From: Thermoanaerobaculia bacterium
GTDB taxonomy: Bacteria > Acidobacteriota > Thermoanaerobaculia > UBA5066 > Gp7-AA6
Direction: 5' to 3'
Assembly (NCBI GenBank): GCA_036505435.1
Contig: DASXTN010000312.1
Coordinates: 1 to 27,519, forward strand
DNA: 27,519 nt
Position numbers and translations under genes: made by a program
The notes under the pieces: generated by a model
Seen by the model: only the letters and a program-made list of their open reading frames with translations
Database searches by the model: none
Told to the model about the DNA's origin: nothing
In this document: positions 3,348 through 8,979 of the stretch, in pieces
Layout: every line of letters begins with the position of its first letter
How positions within the stretch are numbered: position 1 is the first letter of the stretch

Positions 3348-5897
3348 TCATTCCACCCTCATGAACAGGAAGGTCATGTCGTCGTACTGCTCGGCCCCGC
3401 CCACGTGCGCGTGGATGTCCGCAAGGAGCCCGCGGGCGATCTCGTCCAAGGGCGCGTTGCGCCGGACTTCGAGAGACTGCATGAGCCGCTCCTCTCCGAA
3501 CGGGTTCATCGCGCCGTCCATCGCCTCGGTGAAACCGTCGGTGTAGAAGAAGAGCAAGTCGCCGCGTTTCAAGAAGAACTCTCGCGTGTCGTAGGGCACT
3601 TCCTTGAACGCGCCGAGCGGCAGCCGGTGGTTCGGGGGCTCTAAGAACCGGGGCCCACCGTCGCCGGATCGGAAGATCATCGGCAGCGGCTGTCCGCCGA
3701 TCGCGTACCGCAGGCTCATCGCGTCGGGATCGAGCAGGAAATACCCGAGCGAGACGAACATGCGCCGCTTGATCGAGTAAATGCGGCGGTTCGACTCCTG
3801 AAAGAGCCGCCCCGGGTCGCGCGTCGTCAGGGCGCGCGAATAGACGATTTCCTTCGAAGCGACCATGAGAAGCGAGGCGGGAACGGACTTTCCCGAGACG
3901 TCGCCGATCACGACGCCGAGACGCCGATCGTCGAACGAGATGAAATCGTAGAAGTCGCCACCGACCACCTTCGCGGGCAGGCTGCCGCCGAGAAAGGAGA
4001 AGCCGGAGACGGACGGCAGGGACCGAGGCAACAGACTCGTCTGGATGTCGCGCGCGATCTCGAGATCGCGCCGCAGCTCCGCTTGCCGCGTCATCTCGTC
4101 ATGAAGGATCGCCGTCTCGATCGCGAGCGCCGACTGGTTCGCCAGCGTCGAGAGCAGCGTCTGATCATCCCGGTCGAATCGCTCGCCGGAAAGCTTCTCT
4201 TTCAGCGCGAGGATTCCCATCAGCCGTTCTCGATAGGCGAGCGGGACGAGCAGATGGTACCCCTCCGCGATGACGCGCTCGCAGAACCGCCGGCTCTCCG
4301 GGTCGCTCACGCGTTGTGAGAGGTCCTCCGGCGGGGCGGCTTTCCCTTCCTGGCGCAGGATCCGGCGAACCTCGGCGGTTGGGGAGATTCGGTCCTCGCG
4401 CCGGCCGCGCCGCTCCAGCCACCCTTCCGCGTCGCGCAGCCAGATCGAAGCCTTCTCGAGCCGCATCGTCCCCGCGACGCGTCCCGTCAGAAAGTCGGCG
4501 ATCTTTCCGAGGTCGAGCTCTCCGGTGATCGCCTCGCTCATGTCGAGGAGCGCCTTCTGGTAATCGAATTTTTCGCGGAAGAAGAGCTTGTCGAGCGGCG
4601 TCTGGAGCTTTCTTCGGAGGACCTCGAAGAGCGAGATGCCCACGAGGAAGAATCCGAAGTTGAACAGCGGGGAGGACGAGAGCCGTGATTCGGCGAAGAT
4701 GACGTTCGCCATCGCGACGGCGAGGGCATAGACCCCGAGCAGAATCGCCGTCGTCGCCGCATAGAGGAACGTCCGGCGAACGATCACGCGCACGTTCAGC
4801 ATCTGAAAGCGCACGATTGCGTACGCGAACGTGAGCGGGATGAAGATCATCGGAACGATGCCGTAGAAGACGTAGTCCTCGATGTTGAATGCAGACGGCA
4901 ACACGATTCCGAACAGCACGAAAGGTGCGATCCCGACGATCGTTCCGATGAAGACGTGGAAGGCCTGCCTCCGCTCGCGGGCGTCGGGAAGCGTGAACGC
5001 GGAGTGGGCGAGCGCGATCAGGCCGAGGACGAGGTAGTCACCGAGGAGCACCCAGGAAGAGAGCGGCGCACCGGAAAGGATGGCGACGCGGTGGCCACGC
5101 AGCTGCCGCATGACGTCGTACAGGAAGACGACCGGCGGGATCGAGTACAGAAGGTAGAAGAGCCCGGTGCTCGCCGAGAGGAAGTCCTGCAGTTTCTCTT
5201 TCCAGCGAGGTGGAGGCTCCCCCGTCCACTCGTCCAGCCGAGCGAACGCGAACTCCTTGGGGCGCGGAAAAATCAGGAAGAAGTGGAGAAAAACGGCCGG
5301 AAGCAGGAACAGGCTCACGGTCCCCGTGTTCTGTACGAAGAGATCAATCCACCAGTAGGACGCCGGCCGCAGCCGGCACACGAAGAACAAGAGAAAAAGG
5401 ACGCAGAGCAGGAAAAAGATGCGCGCCGCACGGTCCTCCGGACGGCGGTTGAACACGAAGAAACCGATGAAAAAGAAGAGGAATCCGAGGCCGGCCGAGT
5501 AGAGGTAGGTCGTTCCCCCCAACCGCTCCGAAGAAAGGCGAACGGGCGCCGTGTGAAGTTCTCCGCGTGTCTCGCCACCACACCGGCCCCGCTGGTAGAG
5601 GTAGGACACGGTTTCGCCGATCGCGTGCTTGCGGAGCTCCGCCGAGGCGTCCGAGGTCGAGTTGACCAGGCGCTTTCCGATGCCGAGGACACAATCCCCG
5701 GTGCGGATCCCCGCCACGTCGGCCGGGCTGCGCGAGGCTGCGGCCCGCACCTCGATCCCGCCACGGCTGTAAGGGACCGGGACTATTCCGTCGTAGGGAC
5801 GCGGCGCGAACATGTCCGCGATCGAAGCGATCGCGAGCGCGAGCCCGGCGAAGCCGATCGCGAGGTACAGCGCACGGCCTCGCGCGGAATTCGTCAT
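3348..5897 (-). CDS. Membrane PP2C/SpoIIE-family Ser/Thr phosphatase (TM - PDZ - multi-TM - GAF - PP2C)
   Basis: PP2C motifs VVGGDFYDF, IGDVSGK, YTDGFTEA, QYDDMT. PDZ-like SPADVAGIRTGDCVLGI. About 10 hydrophobic segments and a GAF-like region (LLVPL...LMGILAL...LSTLANQSALAIE). Confidence 0.9.
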   Translation of the reverse strand: MTNSARGRALYLAIGFAGLALAIASIADMFAPRPYDGIVPVPYSRGGIEVRAAASRSPADVAGIRTGDCVLGIGKRLVNSTSDASAELRKHAIGETVSYLYQRGRCGGETRGELHTAPVRLSSERLGGTTYLYSAGLGFLFFFIGFFVFNRRPEDRAARIFFLLCVLFLLFFVCRLRPASYWWIDLFVQNTGTVSLFLLPAVFLHFFLIFPRPKEFAFARLDEWTGEPPPRWKEKLQDFLSASTGLFYLLYSIPPVVFLYDVMRQLRGHRVAILSGAPLSSWVLLGDYLVLGLIALAHSAFTLPDARERRQAFHVFIGTIVGIAPFVLFGIVLPSAFNIEDYVFYGIVPMIFIPLTFAYAIVRFQMLNVRVIVRRTFLYAATTAILLGVYALAVAMANVIFAESRLSSSPLFNFGFFLVGISLFEVLRRKLQTPLDKLFFREKFDYQKALLDMSEAITGELDLGKIADFLTGRVAGTMRLEKASIWLRDAEGWLERRGRREDRISPTAEVRRILRQEGKAAPPEDLSQRVSDPESRRFCERVIAEGYHLLVPLAYRERLMGILALKEKLSGERFDRDDQTLLSTLANQSALAIETAILHDEMTRQAELRRDLEIARDIQTSLLPRSLPSVSGFSFLGGSLPAKVVGGDFYDFISFDDRRLGVVIGDVSGKSVPASLLMVASKEIVYSRALTTRDPGRLFQESNRRIYSIKRRMFVSLGYFLLDPDAMSLRYAIGGQPLPMIFRSGDGGPRFLEPPNHRLPLGAFKEVPYDTREFFLKRGDLLFFYTDGFTEAMDGAMNPFGEERLMQSLEVRRNAPLDEIARGLLADIHAHVGGAEQYDDMTFLFMRVE

Positions 5898-5974
5898 GTC
5901 AGCGAGTACGCACCAAAACTGGCAATGTTAGCCGAGGGCGCGGGGCCGAACGGATAGCTGATAGCTTCCTTTCG

Positions 5975-6598
5975 ATGCCGTTCGTCACGTTCGAGGGCGT
6001 CGAGGGCTCGGGAAAAACGACCCAGCTCAAGATGGCGGCCGCCCGCCTGAAGGAAGTGGGCCGGCCGGTGCTCGCGACCCGGGAGCCGGGAGGCACGCGG
6101 ATCGGGCGGATTCTGCGCGCGATCCTCTTGAAGAAGGCGCACCGAGAGCTCGACCCCGTGACCGAATGGCTTCTTTTCGAGGCCGACCGGCGCCAGCACG
6201 TCCGAGAAATTCTTCGTCCCGCGCTCGACCGCGGTCTCTTCGTCCTCTGCGATCGGTTCTCCGACGCGACCGAGGCCTACCAACAAGTCGGCCGCCGGCT
6301 GAACGGACGTCTCGTTCGTCGGGTCGACGAGCTCGCGCGCGACGGGCTCCTCCCCGACTTGACGCTTCTCTACGACGTCGACCCTCGCGAAGGATTGACT
6401 CGTGCGAGTCGGCGCGGGGCGCGCGGAATCGGACGGTTCGAGGAGACCGAGCTCGCGTTCCACGAAAGCGTACGGAGGGCATACCTCGCGATCGCGAAGA
6501 GAGCGCCGGACCGTGTCCGCGTTCTCGACGCCCACCGGCCGGTTCGAGCGCTCTTCCGCGAGACGTGGAGAGCGCTCGCGGAGCACTTCCAGCTTTGA
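5975..6598 (+). CDS. tmk: Thymidylate kinase (dTMP kinase)
   Basis: FVTFEGVEGSGKTTQ P-loop, TREPGG, LCDRFSDATEAYQ, PDLTLLYDVD; adjacent to holB. Confidence 0.96.
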   Translation: MPFVTFEGVEGSGKTTQLKMAAARLKEVGRPVLATREPGGTRIGRILRAILLKKAHRELDPVTEWLLFEADRRQHVREILRPALDRGLFVLCDRFSDATEAYQQVGRRLNGRLVRRVDELARDGLLPDLTLLYDVDPREGLTRASRRGARGIGRFEETELAFHESVRRAYLAIAKRAPDRVRVLDAHRPVRALFRETWRALAEHFQL

Positions 6599-7551
6599 GC
6601 GTCTTCGTTTTCCCACCGCTGCTCGAACGGCTCGCCGACCGGCCCGACCAGTTTCCGGGAGCGCTCCTCCTCCACGCAACCTCCGAGAGGCCGCTCGAAG
6701 AACGGTCGCTTTCTCTCGGGGCGTTCCTGCTCTGCCCCGGCGACGATCCCGAGCTTCGGTGCCAGTCGTGCCGACGCGCCCGCGAAAGCTTCCATCCCGA
6801 CCTGCTGACGGTCGAACCCGAGGGAGTTCAGATCCGCGTCGACCGCGTTCGGGAAGCGATCGCGTTCGGAATGGGAAAGCCCTACGAGAGCGCCCGCCGG
6901 GTCGTTCGGATTTCGCGCGCGGAGCTCCTGGGTGTCGAGGCGGCGAACGCTCTCTTGAAGTCGCTCGAGGAGCCCGGCTCGCGCCTGCACTGGATCCTGA
7001 CGACCACGCGCCCCGAAGCGCTGCTTTCGACGATCCGGTCCCGCTGTCTCGCGCTGCGCATCGCCGCTCCGACCACCCGCGACCGCGCGCGGGAGTGGCG
7101 CGAAGCGGGATTCTCGGACGCGGACGCCGCAGACCTCGCGATTTTCGCCCTCGAGACCGAAGATGCCCGCTCCGATCGGCTCGAGCAGGCGCGCCGGTTC
7201 CGTTCCGACGCTGTGGACGCCCTCCGCGCGGGGATCGTCGAGGGAAAACTGGCGGCTCTCGTGCTCCTCGCCGAGAGACTCGGGCGCGCGGAGACGGACG
7301 AGCTCCGTGTTTTCGGTGAGCTGCTCGCTGACTCCGCGCTCGTCGCTGCCGGAGTCTCCGCCGAGCTCGTGCGACATCGCGCGGTCGTGGGACCGCTCTC
7401 GGAGATCGGCCGCAGCGTCGGCGCGTCGGCTCTCCAGAAGGCCGCGCTCGCTGCCGCCGATTCTCCGCCGGACACCCGGCGGGGAAACCGGCGTCTGCAC
7501 TTCGAGAAGTTGCTCCTGGTGTTGGCCGTTGCGGCGCGGTCGCCGCGCTAG
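6595..7551 (+). CDS. holB: DNA polymerase III subunit delta'
   Basis: HPDLL, IRVDRVRE, AANALLKSLEEP, LLSTIRSRC (SRC motif); conserved tmk-holB order. Probable TTG start at 6595 overlapping the tmk stop (TTGA). The ORF-track start at 6166 is spurious. Confidence 0.88.
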   Translation: MSVFVFPPLLERLADRPDQFPGALLLHATSERPLEERSLSLGAFLLCPGDDPELRCQSCRRARESFHPDLLTVEPEGVQIRVDRVREAIAFGMGKPYESARRVVRISRAELLGVEAANALLKSLEEPGSRLHWILTTTRPEALLSTIRSRCLALRIAAPTTRDRAREWREAGFSDADAADLAIFALETEDARSDRLEQARRFRSDAVDALRAGIVEGKLAALVLLAERLGRAETDELRVFGELLADSALVAAGVSAELVRHRAVVGPLSEIGRSVGASALQKAALAAADSPPDTRRGNRRLHFEKLLLVLAVAARSPR

Positions 7552-7576
7552 TTCTCAGCTCTCCAGCTGGACGCGG

Positions 7577-7734
7577 TTTTCGAAGGAACAACGGGGAGGC
7601 CCTCCGACCCGGCGGGATCGGAAGGATTCGGGAAGAGTGCGGACCTGGGAGCTACCGAAACTGGCAGAAGGTGGGGTCAACCACCATGACAGACGCCGCC
7701 GGGTGTTCGCGCCTCCCCGTAATTCCTTCGAGAG
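7577..7734 (-). ncRNA. Candidate structured small RNA (rod-like hairpin), family not recognised
   Basis: Three stacked perfect helices: 7580-7588/7723-7731 (9 bp), 7591-7600/7711-7720 (10 bp), 7607-7615/7696-7704 (9 bp), enclosing 80 nt. A TATACT -10 box sits at the expected distance upstream on the minus strand. Confidence 0.45.
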
Positions 7735-7739
7735 GGGTC

Positions 7740-7819
7740 AGTATAGACCAAAGGCGAACCACCGTTTCGACTCGCGAAGTCTAGGGCGACGAAAGTCGAG
7801 GTCGACCCGACAGAAGTCG
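7740..7819 (-). promoter_or_regulatory. Putative promoter and operator dyads for the candidate sRNA
   Basis: TATACT (7745-7740); CGAC-N4-GTCG at 7787-7798 and 7808-7819; GACT-N5-AGTC at 7769-7781. Confidence 0.35.
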
Positions 7820-7866
7820 CCAAATCGGACGGCGGAAGCCCTCCGAGAAGCGCGGGCGCTTCGAAT

Positions 7867-8832
7867 TCAGCGTTCGAGCGTGATTTCGACCTTCTCGATC
7901 TCGCCCCGCGTGACGGTCACTTCGAGCCGCCGATCCCGGTAGCCCGGCCGGGACACGAAGAGGACGTGCCGGCCGGGCGCGACGGCGACGCCGGCGTCGG
8001 AGGCGAGCTCCGATGCCGTGCCGACAAAGCGGTCGTCCAGGTAGATCGTCGCGTCGGCTGGCCGGACGTTCAAGACGAGACGGGTGTCACCCTGCTCGGC
8101 GGCGCCCCGCCCGCGCCACTCTTCGCGCGGACGGCGCCCCTCGCGGTCTCGGTCCGCCTCCACCTCTTCGCGGTCAGGGCCGCGATCCTCCGCGTTCTCG
8201 TCGTACCGCTCCCGTGGCCGCTCGCGGTAGCGGTCGCCTCCGTAGATCTCGTCGTCGTCCGTCACCTCGACGGAGACGTCGCGGCGCTTCGCCCAGAACC
8301 GGCGAACCCCCCCGCGCGGCTCCGGGTTCTCGTAGCTGCCGTAGCGCGAAGCCCCCGGAATTTTCGGGAGCTTTTCGTCGAGGTCAATCTTTACTCCCGG
8401 CCGGGCGTCGACGGAGATCTCGCGCGATTGGTAACCCTCGAGCCGGAACTCCAGCCGGTAGCTTCCGCGGCGAAGATACAGATAATCGGGGTACCCGTCG
8501 AAGTCGTCCGCCGTGCCGATGTACTGCCCGTCCAGATAGACGCGGGCGCTCTCCGGTGAAATGTCGGTGTCGACGACCGCCCAACTTCCGGAGGGTGCGT
8601 AGCCGTAGCGGCCGTACCCGCGGTAGGACGGCCCGTAGCCGTACCAATACGGGTCATACCAGTAGGGACCGTAGCCCCAACCCCAGTACCAGGGTCGATA
8701 TCGGAATCCGAAGTACACGTGGGGACGGCGATGAGCGACGGTGACGGCGGCTCCGGCACGTACGCGTGGGCGCGCTGCGAGGGGCGCCGACGCCGCGATG
8801 GCGAGAGCGACGATCAAGATGAGCTTCTTCAT
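7867..8832 (-). CDS. Secreted protein with two PEGA domains and low-complexity regions
   Basis: Signal peptide MKKLILIVALAIAASAPLAA after SD GGAGGGAGG. PEGA-like VDTDISPESARVYLDGQYIG...LRRGSYRLEFRLEGY and LNVRPADATIYLDDRFVG...PGRHVLFVSRPGY. Start moved from 8874 to the ATG at 8832. Confidence 0.85.
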   Translation of the reverse strand: MKKLILIVALAIAASAPLAARPRVRAGAAVTVAHRRPHVYFGFRYRPWYWGWGYGPYWYDPYWYGYGPSYRGYGRYGYAPSGSWAVVDTDISPESARVYLDGQYIGTADDFDGYPDYLYLRRGSYRLEFRLEGYQSREISVDARPGVKIDLDEKLPKIPGASRYGSYENPEPRGGVRRFWAKRRDVSVEVTDDDEIYGGDRYRERPRERYDENAEDRGPDREEVEADRDREGRRPREEWRGRGAAEQGDTRLVLNVRPADATIYLDDRFVGTASELASDAGVAVAPGRHVLFVSRPGYRDRRLEVTVTRGEIEKVEITLER

Positions 8833-8858
8833 GGACACTGCCTCCCTCCATTGGACGA

Positions 8859-8873
8859 GCAAGTCCGACGCCA
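8859..8873 (-). promoter_or_regulatory. Sigma54 (-24/-12) promoter of the PEGA gene
   Basis: TGGCGTCGGACTTGC has exact GG-N10-GC spacing. The predicted +1 near 8847 falls just at the SD. Confidence 0.6.
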
Positions 8874-8979
8874 CGTTGACGGAGCCGGAAAACGCCGCGA
8901 AATTTCCTGTCTACAGTTGGTTGCGCAAGAGCGACTCTATTCCTCGGCCTCGCCGCTGACCTCCCCGAAGGCCACTGCG

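What the first reader, a model, noticed from the sequence alone, without database searches (positions are those of the whole stretch)
7577..7745. Unannotated ~155-nt rod-shaped RNA with its own -10 box and anti-Shine-Dalgarno-like loops
Seen: between the convergent holB and PEGA genes, 28 perfectly complementary bp in three stacked helices join the ends of a ~155-nt segment. On the minus strand a TATACT box (7745-7740) puts +1 at about 7733, right at the hairpin's 5' end. On that strand the 6x6 internal loop (GCGAAC/CGGAGG) has tandem G-A appositions. The 80-nt core carries two small hairpins (GGUGG/CCACC, CUGCC/GGUAG) and a CU-rich stretch with CUCCC, CUUCCC and UCCUUCC (plus-strand 7647-7651, 7630-7635, 7620-7626). 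Established: 6S RNA is an end-paired rod, and several sRNAs (AbcR/alpha-r15, RsaE) use unpaired C-rich anti-SD seeds. I could not match SRP, tmRNA, RNase P, tRNA or riboswitch signatures. Inference: a divergent 6S-like RNA or a new anti-SD sRNA family. Read on the plus strand, the same core is a cluster of GGA motifs (a CsrA-sponge alternative).
Basis: partly seen in the sequence, partly recalled or inferred. Interest (0 to 1): 0.75.

Follow-up and report, generated by a model that had tools for sequence, protein, structure and literature searches.

The report
New conserved small RNA in soil Acidobacteria
The hairpin is a real small non-coding RNA gene with no known relatives, found in a single family of uncultured soil Acidobacteria, which is also the one family in its class without a recognisable copy of the near-universal 6S RNA.

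Summary
A single-copy RNA of about 155 nt lies on the window's minus strand (7732 to 7579). It has a -10 box (TATACT, 7745-7740) conserved in 56 of 56 homologous loci. A U-run follows the closing stem in 35 of 56.

The RNA is a rod of three helices (10, 10 and 9 bp). The two inner helices covary. The rod holds open an 80-nt core. The 5' half of the core varies between genera. The 3' half is a nearly invariant, mostly unpaired, CU-rich platform of about 40 nt.

No Rfam family matches it, even at E up to 10. It was found only in one family of Thermoanaerobaculia (56/80 genomes; 0/133 in 16 other families of the class), always between holB and a PEGA gene. That family has no Rfam 6S hit (0/17, and 1/90, which is probably a contaminant contig), against 107/133 elsewhere in the class.

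Metatranscriptome contigs cover the RNA but not the flanking genes.

The CsrA-sponge, Y RNA, SRP and repeat/MITE readings are rejected. Membership of the 6S family is not supported.

Function is inferred only. My odds are about 0.4 for a base-pairing sRNA that uses the CU-rich platform and about 0.25 for a protein- or RNAP-sequestering substitute for 6S. Moderately high interest.

The parts
7579..7732 (-). sRNA gene, about 154 nt, from the predicted transcription start to the end of the closing stem
   Evidence: Covariance model R1 matches 7579-7732 on the minus strand at 180.5 bits. Homologues are 73-95% identical in 28 of 61 related genomes. Metatranscriptome contigs cover 7580-7711 only.
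7740..7745 (-). -10 promoter box TATACT, 7-8 nt upstream of the first base of helix P1
   Evidence: TATACT, TATAAT or TATAGT sits at the same distance in 56 of 56 loci and in the divergent g2/g7 variants. SRP RNA genes of the same family have TAGAAT/TACAAT boxes. No transcription start was mapped, so this is an inference.
7722..7731 (-). P1, 5' strand (UCGAAGGAAU)
   Evidence: It pairs with 7580-7589. All cells are paired in 50 distinct sequences, and 8 of the 10 pairs never vary. The sequence itself is therefore constrained, not only the pairing.
7580..7589 (-). P1, 3' strand (GUUCCUUCGA). In most homologues a U-run follows directly, so the rod doubles as the terminator stem.
   Evidence: U-run within a few nt in 35 of 56 loci. 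This window has no U-run.
7711..7720 (-). P2, 5' strand
   Evidence: It pairs with 7591-7600. Eight of 11 model pairs show changes on both sides.
7591..7600 (-). P2, 3' strand
7601..7606 (-). 3' side of the 6x6 internal loop (CGGAGG); the 5' side is 7705-7710 (GCGAAC)
   Evidence: The GAAGA / CGGAG consensus is kept in genera g1 and g10. It may form a G-A motif, but its structure was not tested.
7696..7704 (-). P3, 5' strand; a 3-bp extension follows at 7692-7694
   Evidence: It pairs with 7607-7615 (extension 7617-7619). Cells are 92% paired, 3 pairs show changes on both sides, and there are many G-U pairs.
7607..7615 (-). P3, 3' strand
7657..7691 (-). Variable 5' half of the core. Here it holds hairpin A (7681-7685/7670-7674) and the 5' arm of hairpin B (7663-7667).
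   Evidence: Sequence and fold differ between genera. A 4-bp helix between the invariant GGCG and a YGYC word is possible in all 50 distinct sequences, but the changes are on one side only. This part is unresolved.
7617..7656 (-). Nearly invariant CU-rich platform (GGUAGCUCCCAGGUCCGCAC... to ...CCUUCCGAUC), predicted mostly single-stranded
   Evidence: Almost every column is invariant or at least 90% conserved across 50 distinct sequences. Mean unpaired probability is 0.66 for 7617-7651. The first 25 nt are also kept in the short g2 variant.
7552..7578 (-). 3' flank with a weak palindrome (UCCAGCUGGA) and no U-run, lying between the RNA and the stop codon of convergent holB
   Evidence: The exact 3' end in this genome is not defined.

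Best explanation
Shown: 7732-7579 (minus strand) is a single-copy gene for a structured RNA of about 155 nt. It belongs to a family with no match in Rfam and occurs in one family of Thermoanaerobaculia (Acidobacteriota). A 30-bp closing rod (P1-P3) pairs the 5' and 3' ends and holds open an 80-nt core. The 3' half of that core is a nearly invariant, largely unpaired, pyrimidine-rich platform of about 40 nt (CUCCCA, CUCUUCCC, UCCUUCC, GAUCCC). Inferred: transcription starts 7-8 nt after a conserved TATACT box and ends at a U-run after the rod. Inferred, and my choice of mechanism (about 0.4): it is a trans-acting regulatory sRNA. The rod protects both ends. The exposed CU-rich platform pairs with purine-rich, Shine-Dalgarno-like stretches of several mRNAs and blocks or remodels translation initiation. 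The 3' stem plus U-tail probably binds Hfq, as in AbcR/alpha-r15- or RsaE/RoxS-type sRNAs.
For: Gene status:
- It is single-copy in its own genome.
- Homologues are 73-95% identical across 12 genera, always in the order holB > < RNA < PEGA < GT2.
- Helices are 85.9% paired against 36-54% when the partners are slid; 14 pairs have compensatory changes; 0 of 500 shuffles reach the covariation score. The independent MAFFT alignment shows 7 compensatory pairs.

Strand:
- The -10 box is conserved in 56 of 56 loci.
- A U-run follows P1 in 35 of 56.
- G-U cells outnumber A-C cells 140 to 35 in the helices.

Expression:
- At least 14 RNA libraries from many studies hold the core words.
- Contigs from four metatranscriptomes (110-244 nt, word depth up to 24) cover 7580-7711 and nothing in holB or PEGA.

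Mechanism:
- The platform is invariant and predicted to be accessible.
- Hfq is encoded in 41 of 41 genomes of the order that were searched.
- There is no gene downstream on its strand, so it is not a leader.
Against: - No target is known.
- A crude test found no enrichment of 8-nt complements of the platform just upstream of long ORFs (9.8% against 8.8-10.9% for composition-matched controls).
- About 40 invariant nucleotides is longer than a usual seed.
- An invariant helix P1 and a conserved G-A-rich internal loop look more like protein recognition than simple base pairing.
- Seeds held in the internal loop of a closed rod are unusual for Hfq sRNAs.
- The contigs carry no strand information, and DNA carry-over in the RNA libraries cannot be strictly excluded.
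Confidence: 0.4

Rival explanations
1. It is a functional substitute for 6S RNA: an abundant, end-protected RNA that sequesters RNA polymerase (holoenzyme or core), as 6S, Ms1 and CoRP do. It would have arisen in a family that lost the ancestral 6S gene. The invariant platform and the invariant GGCGUC at the top of P3 would then be the protein-contact or template surface.
For: - RF00013 hits: family f1 0/24, 1/90 (a 1.5-kb contig in a MAG with 6% contamination) and 0/17. Sister families score 15/16, and the rest of the class 107/133. Five near-complete f1 genomes give only noise at E up to 10.
- The new RNA shows the reverse pattern: f1 56/80 and 12/17, all 16 other families 0/133.
- Its size (about 155 nt) is close to the shortest 6S. 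Its ends are paired and it has a large internal unpaired region.
- It assembles from small metatranscriptomes, which suggests abundance.
- P1 is invariant in sequence.
- PMC11077062 proposes that each species has one abundant RNAP-binding RNA and that unknown types exist.
Against: - The loss and the gain are each a single evolutionary event, so the complementary distribution is one coincidence, not a statistic.
- Genus g12 (0/12 and 0/2) and most g7 genomes lack both RNAs.
- There is no second long helix beyond the bubble. The bubble is very asymmetric, about 10 nt against 35 nt.
- It has no sequence or model similarity to 6S.
- 6S is dispensable in model bacteria (from my own knowledge), so a loss need not be compensated.
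Confidence: 0.25
2. It is the RNA part of another ribonucleoprotein, or a sponge for an unidentified RNA-binding protein that recognises pyrimidine-rich single strands (for example a KH- or S1-domain protein), unrelated to RNA polymerase.
For: The platform has four similar YCCYUCC-like words. P1 is invariant. The internal loop is conserved. Abundance is suggested.
Against: No candidate partner gene is linked to it, and the neighbouring genes (holB, PEGA, GT2) have no RNA-related role. No Ro/TROVE protein was found in 36 family genomes.
Confidence: 0.2
3. It is a true, highly diverged descendant of the 6S gene that moved to a new locus.
For: The family has no other recognisable 6S. Overall length and paired ends are similar.
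Against: There is no RF00013 signal at E up to 10. It is not at zapA-rny, where the sister families carry 6S. That spacer in f1 holds a different conserved element. I saw no shared sequence with the sister families' 6S. It lacks the apical helix.
Confidence: 0.05
4. It is a plus-strand RNA whose GGA clusters sponge CsrA.
For: The plus strand folds as well as the minus strand (z = -4.46) and carries several GGA words.
Against: The promoter and terminators are on the minus strand. G-U pairs outnumber A-C 140 to 35 on the minus-strand reading, and those G-U pairs would be mismatches on the plus strand.
Confidence: 0.02
5. It is not an RNA gene but a DNA-level palindrome, a REP/MITE-like repeat, or just a bidirectional terminator between convergent genes.
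For: It is a long inverted repeat between the ends of two convergent genes.
Against: It has one copy per genome. Compensatory changes and G-U asymmetry are present. The invariant 40 nt lie in the unpaired part, not the arms. It is present in RNA libraries without its flanks.
Confidence: 0.03

Closest known systems
6S RNA (Rfam RF00013; SsrS)
   Same: It is a small, abundant, stand-alone RNA of 150-200 nt. The 5' and 3' ends pair in a long closing stem around a large unpaired internal region. It occurs only in the one family of the class that has no detectable 6S.
   Different: No covariance-model match. No long apical helix. The bubble is strongly asymmetric. The locus differs (holB/PEGA instead of zapA-rny). 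RNAP binding and product-RNA synthesis are untested.
Ms1 and CoRP RNAs of Actinobacteria (PMC4191392, PMC11077062)
   Same: They are lineage-restricted, abundant structured RNAs found where canonical 6S is missing. They are a precedent for non-homologous RNAP-binding RNAs.
   Different: They are about 300 nt and 516 nt long and share no sequence or structure with this RNA. They come from a different phylum, and their RNAP binding was shown experimentally, whereas here it is only a hypothesis.
AbcR / alpha-r15 and RsaE/RoxS-type sRNAs with C-rich anti-SD motifs
   Same: It has unpaired CU-rich words, including CUCCCA, its own promoter and a Rho-independent terminator. Hfq is present in the genomes.
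   Different: No Rfam match to any of them. Here the motifs lie in one long internal platform closed by a 30-bp rod, not in hairpin loops. No targets are known, and the RBS-enrichment test was negative.
Y RNAs (Ro/Rsr-associated)
   Same: The ends pair into a long stem, there is a pyrimidine-rich internal loop, and there is a 3' U-tail.
   Different: No TROVE/Rsr gene was found in 36 genomes of the family, and there is no tRNA-like module.

Membership tests
6S RNA (RF00013) | Match to the Rfam covariance model | tested here: not met
   No hit at the gathering score in the window, and none at E up to 10 in 7450-7950. The same model scores 47-92 bits in other families of the class.
6S RNA (RF00013) | Rod architecture: closing stem, central bubble, and a long internal/apical stem with a terminal loop | tested here: not met
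   The closing stem (29 bp) and a large unpaired region are present. Beyond the bubble there are only one or two 5-bp, lineage-specific hairpins.
6S RNA (RF00013) | Conserved locus in this class (zapA - 6S - rny) | tested here: not met
   6S lies between zapA and rny in the sister families. This RNA lies between holB and PEGA in every genome examined.
6S RNA (RF00013) | Binds the sigma70-RNAP holoenzyme and templates product RNAs | not testable with these tools
   This needs RIP-seq, gel shift or in vitro transcription.
Anti-SD base-pairing sRNAs (AbcR/alpha-r15, RsaE/RoxS type) | Homology to a described family | tested here: not met
   No Rfam match at E up to 10.
Anti-SD base-pairing sRNAs (AbcR/alpha-r15, RsaE/RoxS type) | Conserved, unpaired C/U-rich seed motifs on the transcribed strand | tested here: met
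   CUCCCA, CUCUUCCC and UCCUUCC lie in an invariant stretch with mean unpaired probability 0.66. The strand is settled.
Anti-SD base-pairing sRNAs (AbcR/alpha-r15, RsaE/RoxS type) | Complementary sites at ribosome-binding sites of target mRNAs | tested here: inconclusive
   8-mer complements lie before long ORFs in 9.8% of cases against 8.8-10.9% for controls. Gene starts were called crudely and only one 71%-complete genome was used.
CsrB/RsmZ-type CsrA sponges | Multiple GGA motifs in loops of the transcribed strand | tested here: not met
   The transcribed strand is the minus strand, and its unpaired core is CU-rich.
Y RNA | Co-occurrence with a Ro/Rsr (TROVE) protein | tested here: not met
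   PF05731 was found in 0 of 36 family genomes.
Bacterial SRP RNA (RF00169) | It is the genome's SRP RNA | tested here: not met
   A canonical SRP RNA (68-72 bits) lies elsewhere in 5 of 5 family genomes.
REP / MITE-like repeats | Many dispersed copies per genome | tested here: not met
   There is one full-length copy in the own genome, and the other hits are 14-33-nt chance matches. Relatives have one locus each. The exception is one genome with the same stretch on two contigs.

The most novel reading that the evidence does not exclude
This RNA is a fourth, non-homologous class of abundant RNA-polymerase-binding RNA (after 6S, Ms1 and CoRP). It would have arisen in a family of soil Acidobacteria that lost the ancestral zapA-linked 6S gene, and it would use a closed rod plus a pyrimidine-rich open strand instead of the classical open-promoter mimic.
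Probability: 0.22. Interest if true: 0.85.

Novelty: new variant of a known kind. Interest (0 to 1): 0.6.

Why it matters
Almost nothing is known about RNA regulators in Acidobacteria, one of the most abundant soil phyla, and this family has no cultured member among the records seen here. This is a well-supported new RNA gene. Its boundaries, promoter, covariation-supported helices and an invariant functional surface are all defined, and it is visible in soil, ice and plant-associated metatranscriptomes. Its distribution is the mirror image of 6S RNA within one class. That makes a long-standing question concretely testable: what do bacteria that lack 6S use instead, if anything? The hypothesis in PMC11077062 that every species has some abundant RNAP-binding RNA can be tested the same way. 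If the RNA is instead a base-pairing regulator, it would be, as far as I found, the first sRNA regulator proposed for this lineage.

Tried and rejected
- Rfam: gathering scan of the whole window and permissive scan of 7450-7950. Only a chance sX8 hit (15.8 bits) came back, inside holB.
- Repeat/MITE: rejected, single copy.
- SRP RNA: a canonical one lies elsewhere.
- Y RNA: no TROVE protein.
- CsrA sponge on the plus strand: rejected on strand evidence.
- Coding: the only AUG-started frame (11 codons in this genus) is not kept in other genera. Indels are not multiples of three, and conservation is concentrated in the unpaired stretch.
- Divergent copies in g12/g7/g2 genomes that lack a hit: model search at E up to 1 gave only noise.
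- Hidden 6S in the f1 zapA-rny spacer: a conserved structured element is there, but it folds as a leader that pairs with the rny ribosome-binding region and has no Rfam match.
- Targets: a BLAST search for long complements of the platform in the own genome found nothing longer than 14-18 nt. One site (contig C164) sits before a 39-codon ORF and was dropped. A genome-wide RNAduplex scan timed out. The k-mer RBS-enrichment test was negative.
- Structure-aware alignment with MAFFT Q-INS-i/X-INS-i was not available.
- Read direction could not be taken from the contigs.

Full report
**1.

Between convergent holB (6166-7551, plus strand; PF13177) and a PEGA-domain gene (7867-8874, minus strand; PF08308) lies an inverted repeat. 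Its arms are 7580-7615 and 7696-7731 (36 nt, 81% complementary, 80 nt apart).

The minus-strand RNA folds at -83.2 kcal/mol against -63.4 +/- 4.4 for shuffles (z = -4.5). The plus strand folds equally well.

The helices are:
- P1, 7722-7731/7580-7589;
- P2, 7711-7720/7591-7600;
- P3, 7696-7704/7607-7615, with a 3-bp extension.

**2. It is a conserved single-copy gene, not a repeat**

The own genome is a 1.47-Mb MAG, 71% complete. It has one copy, and the other hits are 14-33-nt chance matches.

Among 61 relatives, 28 have one homologue each at 73-95% identity, covering almost exactly 7579-7752. Everywhere the gene order is holB > < RNA < PEGA < GT2.

A scan of 185,579 species genomes for a 24-nt degenerate core word gave 56 loci. 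All are MAGs labelled Acidobacteriota or Thermoanaerobaculia, mostly from soil.

**3. Structure**

A covariance model (R1) aligned 56 loci, 50 of them distinct (A3).
- The model's pairs are 85.9% canonical, against 36-54% when the partners are slid by 1-3 columns.
- 14 pairs carry changes on both sides.
- None of 500 shuffles reaches the covariation score.
- The model-independent MAFFT alignment already shows 7 compensatory pairs.

P2 and P3 covary. P1 is invariant in sequence (8 of 10 pairs never change).

The 5' half of the 80-nt core differs in sequence and fold between genera. A 4-bp GGCG/YGYC helix is possible in all sequences but is supported only by one-sided changes.

The 3' half (7617-7656) is almost completely invariant and is predicted to be mostly unpaired. 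Shorter variants in genera g2 (117-129 nt) and g7 (about 147 nt) keep the promoter and P1. The g2 form also keeps the first 25 nt or so of the platform, while the g7 core is more divergent.

**4. Strand and ends**

On the minus strand a TATACT box (rarely TATAAT or TATAGT) lies 7-8 nt before CUCGAAGG in 56 of 56 loci. Genus g10 also has a TTGAC box 14 nt further upstream. SRP RNA genes of the family use similar TAGAAT/TACAAT boxes.

A U-run directly follows P1 in 35 of 56 loci, and some members of the window's genus have an extra small terminator hairpin. This window itself has no U-run.

In the helices, G-U cells outnumber A-C cells 140 to 35. The RNA is therefore the minus strand, and the plus-strand CsrA-sponge idea fails.

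No gene lies downstream on that strand, so it is not a leader.

**5. Expression**

At least 14 RNA libraries from different studies (soil, ice, plant) hold 23-46% of the sampled words of the RNA.

I laid four metatranscriptomes on 7400-7950. Contigs of 110-244 nt (word depth up to 24) cover 7580-7711 and nothing of holB or PEGA, apart from two 18-20-nt matches in one run. One contig runs on into a relative's version of the RNA, and its length places its end close to the predicted start.

Caveats: contigs carry no strand, depth is not an expression measure, and the flanks of relatives may be too diverged to map.

**6. Not a known family**

Rfam 15 gives nothing at the gathering score in the window and nothing relevant at E up to 10. 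A canonical SRP RNA lies elsewhere. No Ro/TROVE protein is present.

**7. Distribution against 6S**

Model R1 finds the RNA in family f1 only:

| Search | f1 | Other families |
|---|---|---|
| New RNA, order sample | 56/80 | f2 0/63, f3 0/7 |
| New RNA, class sample | 12/17 | 0/133 in 16 families |
| Rfam 6S (RF00013), relatives | 0/24 | f2 8/9, f3 7/7 |
| Rfam 6S, family sample | 1/90 | not searched |
| Rfam 6S, class sample | 0/17 | 107/133 |

The single f1 hit is a 1.5-kb contig in a MAG with 6% contamination. Five near-complete f1 genomes give only noise at E up to 10.

In the sister families 6S sits between zapA and rny. In f1 that spacer is 160-215 nt. It holds a different conserved structure, whose 5' UCGGC pairs with GCCGA next to the rny ribosome-binding site. 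This looks like an rny leader and has no Rfam match.

So f1 has lost a recognisable 6S and, uniquely, carries this RNA. Each of these is one evolutionary event, so the pattern is suggestive and not statistical. Genus g12 and most g7 genomes have neither RNA.

One look at the holB-downstream spacer of g12 rests on genome G025, which is unpublished; no sequence from it is reproduced here.

**8. Mechanism (inferred)**

The functional surface is almost certainly the invariant platform, which the rod holds open.

*Base-pairing sRNA (about 0.4).* In favour:
- CU-rich, anti-SD-like words, including CUCCCA;
- its own promoter, a terminator and a U-tail;
- Hfq in 41 of 41 genomes.

Against:
- no target is known;
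- the RBS-enrichment test was negative;
- the invariant stretch is unusually long.

*Protein or RNAP sequestration as a 6S substitute (about 0.25).* In favour:
- the mirror-image distribution;
- paired, protected ends and apparent abundance;
- an invariant P1 and a conserved internal loop;
- the precedent of Ms1 and CoRP, and the proposal in PMC11077062 that each species has one abundant RNAP-binding RNA.

Against:
- no second long helix;
- g12 and g7 lack both RNAs;
- 6S is dispensable in model bacteria (from my own knowledge).

Another RNP role gets about 0.2. True descent from 6S, a plus-strand RNA, or a DNA-level element together get about 0.1.

**9. Verdict**

This is a real, well-delimited new RNA family of unknown function. 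It is a new variant of known kinds (stand-alone regulatory or sequestering sRNAs) and is not a member of any described family. It is moderately to highly interesting because of its conservation, its apparent abundance in environmental RNA, and its reciprocal distribution with 6S.

Noticed in passing
L052:786-950 (own genome, contig C323); also L050:1771-1944, L053:1771-1938 and L157:1771-1982: In this family the zapA-rny spacer, which holds 6S RNA in the sister families, carries a different conserved structured element of 160-215 nt. A 5' UCGGC pairs with GCCGA just before the rny start codon, and there are conserved hairpins (CGGAAG...CUUCCG). It has no Rfam match. It may be an RNase Y leader that replaced or derives from the 6S gene.
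   Followed up: partly
L034:1470-1598 (-), L150, L152 (genus g2); L147, L148 (genus g7): Shorter, divergent versions of the RNA (117-148 nt) keep the -10 box and P1. In g2 the first part of the platform is also kept, and there GGCCCG/CGGGCC forms a hairpin that the 155-nt form lacks.
   Followed up: partly
upstream of the RNA in genus g10 loci, e.g. L061, L098, L104: A well-conserved TTGAC box lies only 14 nt upstream of the TATACT box, and a TTTRG word lies at about -20 to -16 in most genera. The spacing is too short for a standard sigma70 -35/-10 pair, so the sigma factor is unclear.
   Followed up: no
window 7601-7606 and 7705-7710: The 6x6 internal loop between P2 and P3 keeps a GAAGA / CGGAG consensus in two genera. 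It could be a sheared G-A (loop-E or kink-turn-like) protein-binding motif.
   Followed up: no
G021 contigs C3:8430-8588 and C4:225257-225415 (L038, L029): One near-complete relative carries the RNA with near-identical flanks on two contigs. This is either a recent segmental duplication or an assembly duplicate.
   Followed up: no
window 7163-7942 (+) and 5894-7591 (-): Long open frames (259 and 565 aa) run across the RNA gene or antisense to holB. The 565-aa frame has no Pfam match; the 259-aa frame was not scanned. They look like the spurious ORFs typical of high-GC DNA.
   Followed up: partly
G020:C1, downstream of holB (L138): In one complete g7 genome holB and the PEGA gene converge with only about 60 nt between them. 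The RNA gene has been lost or was never inserted there, and that genome also has no 6S hit.
   Followed up: partly
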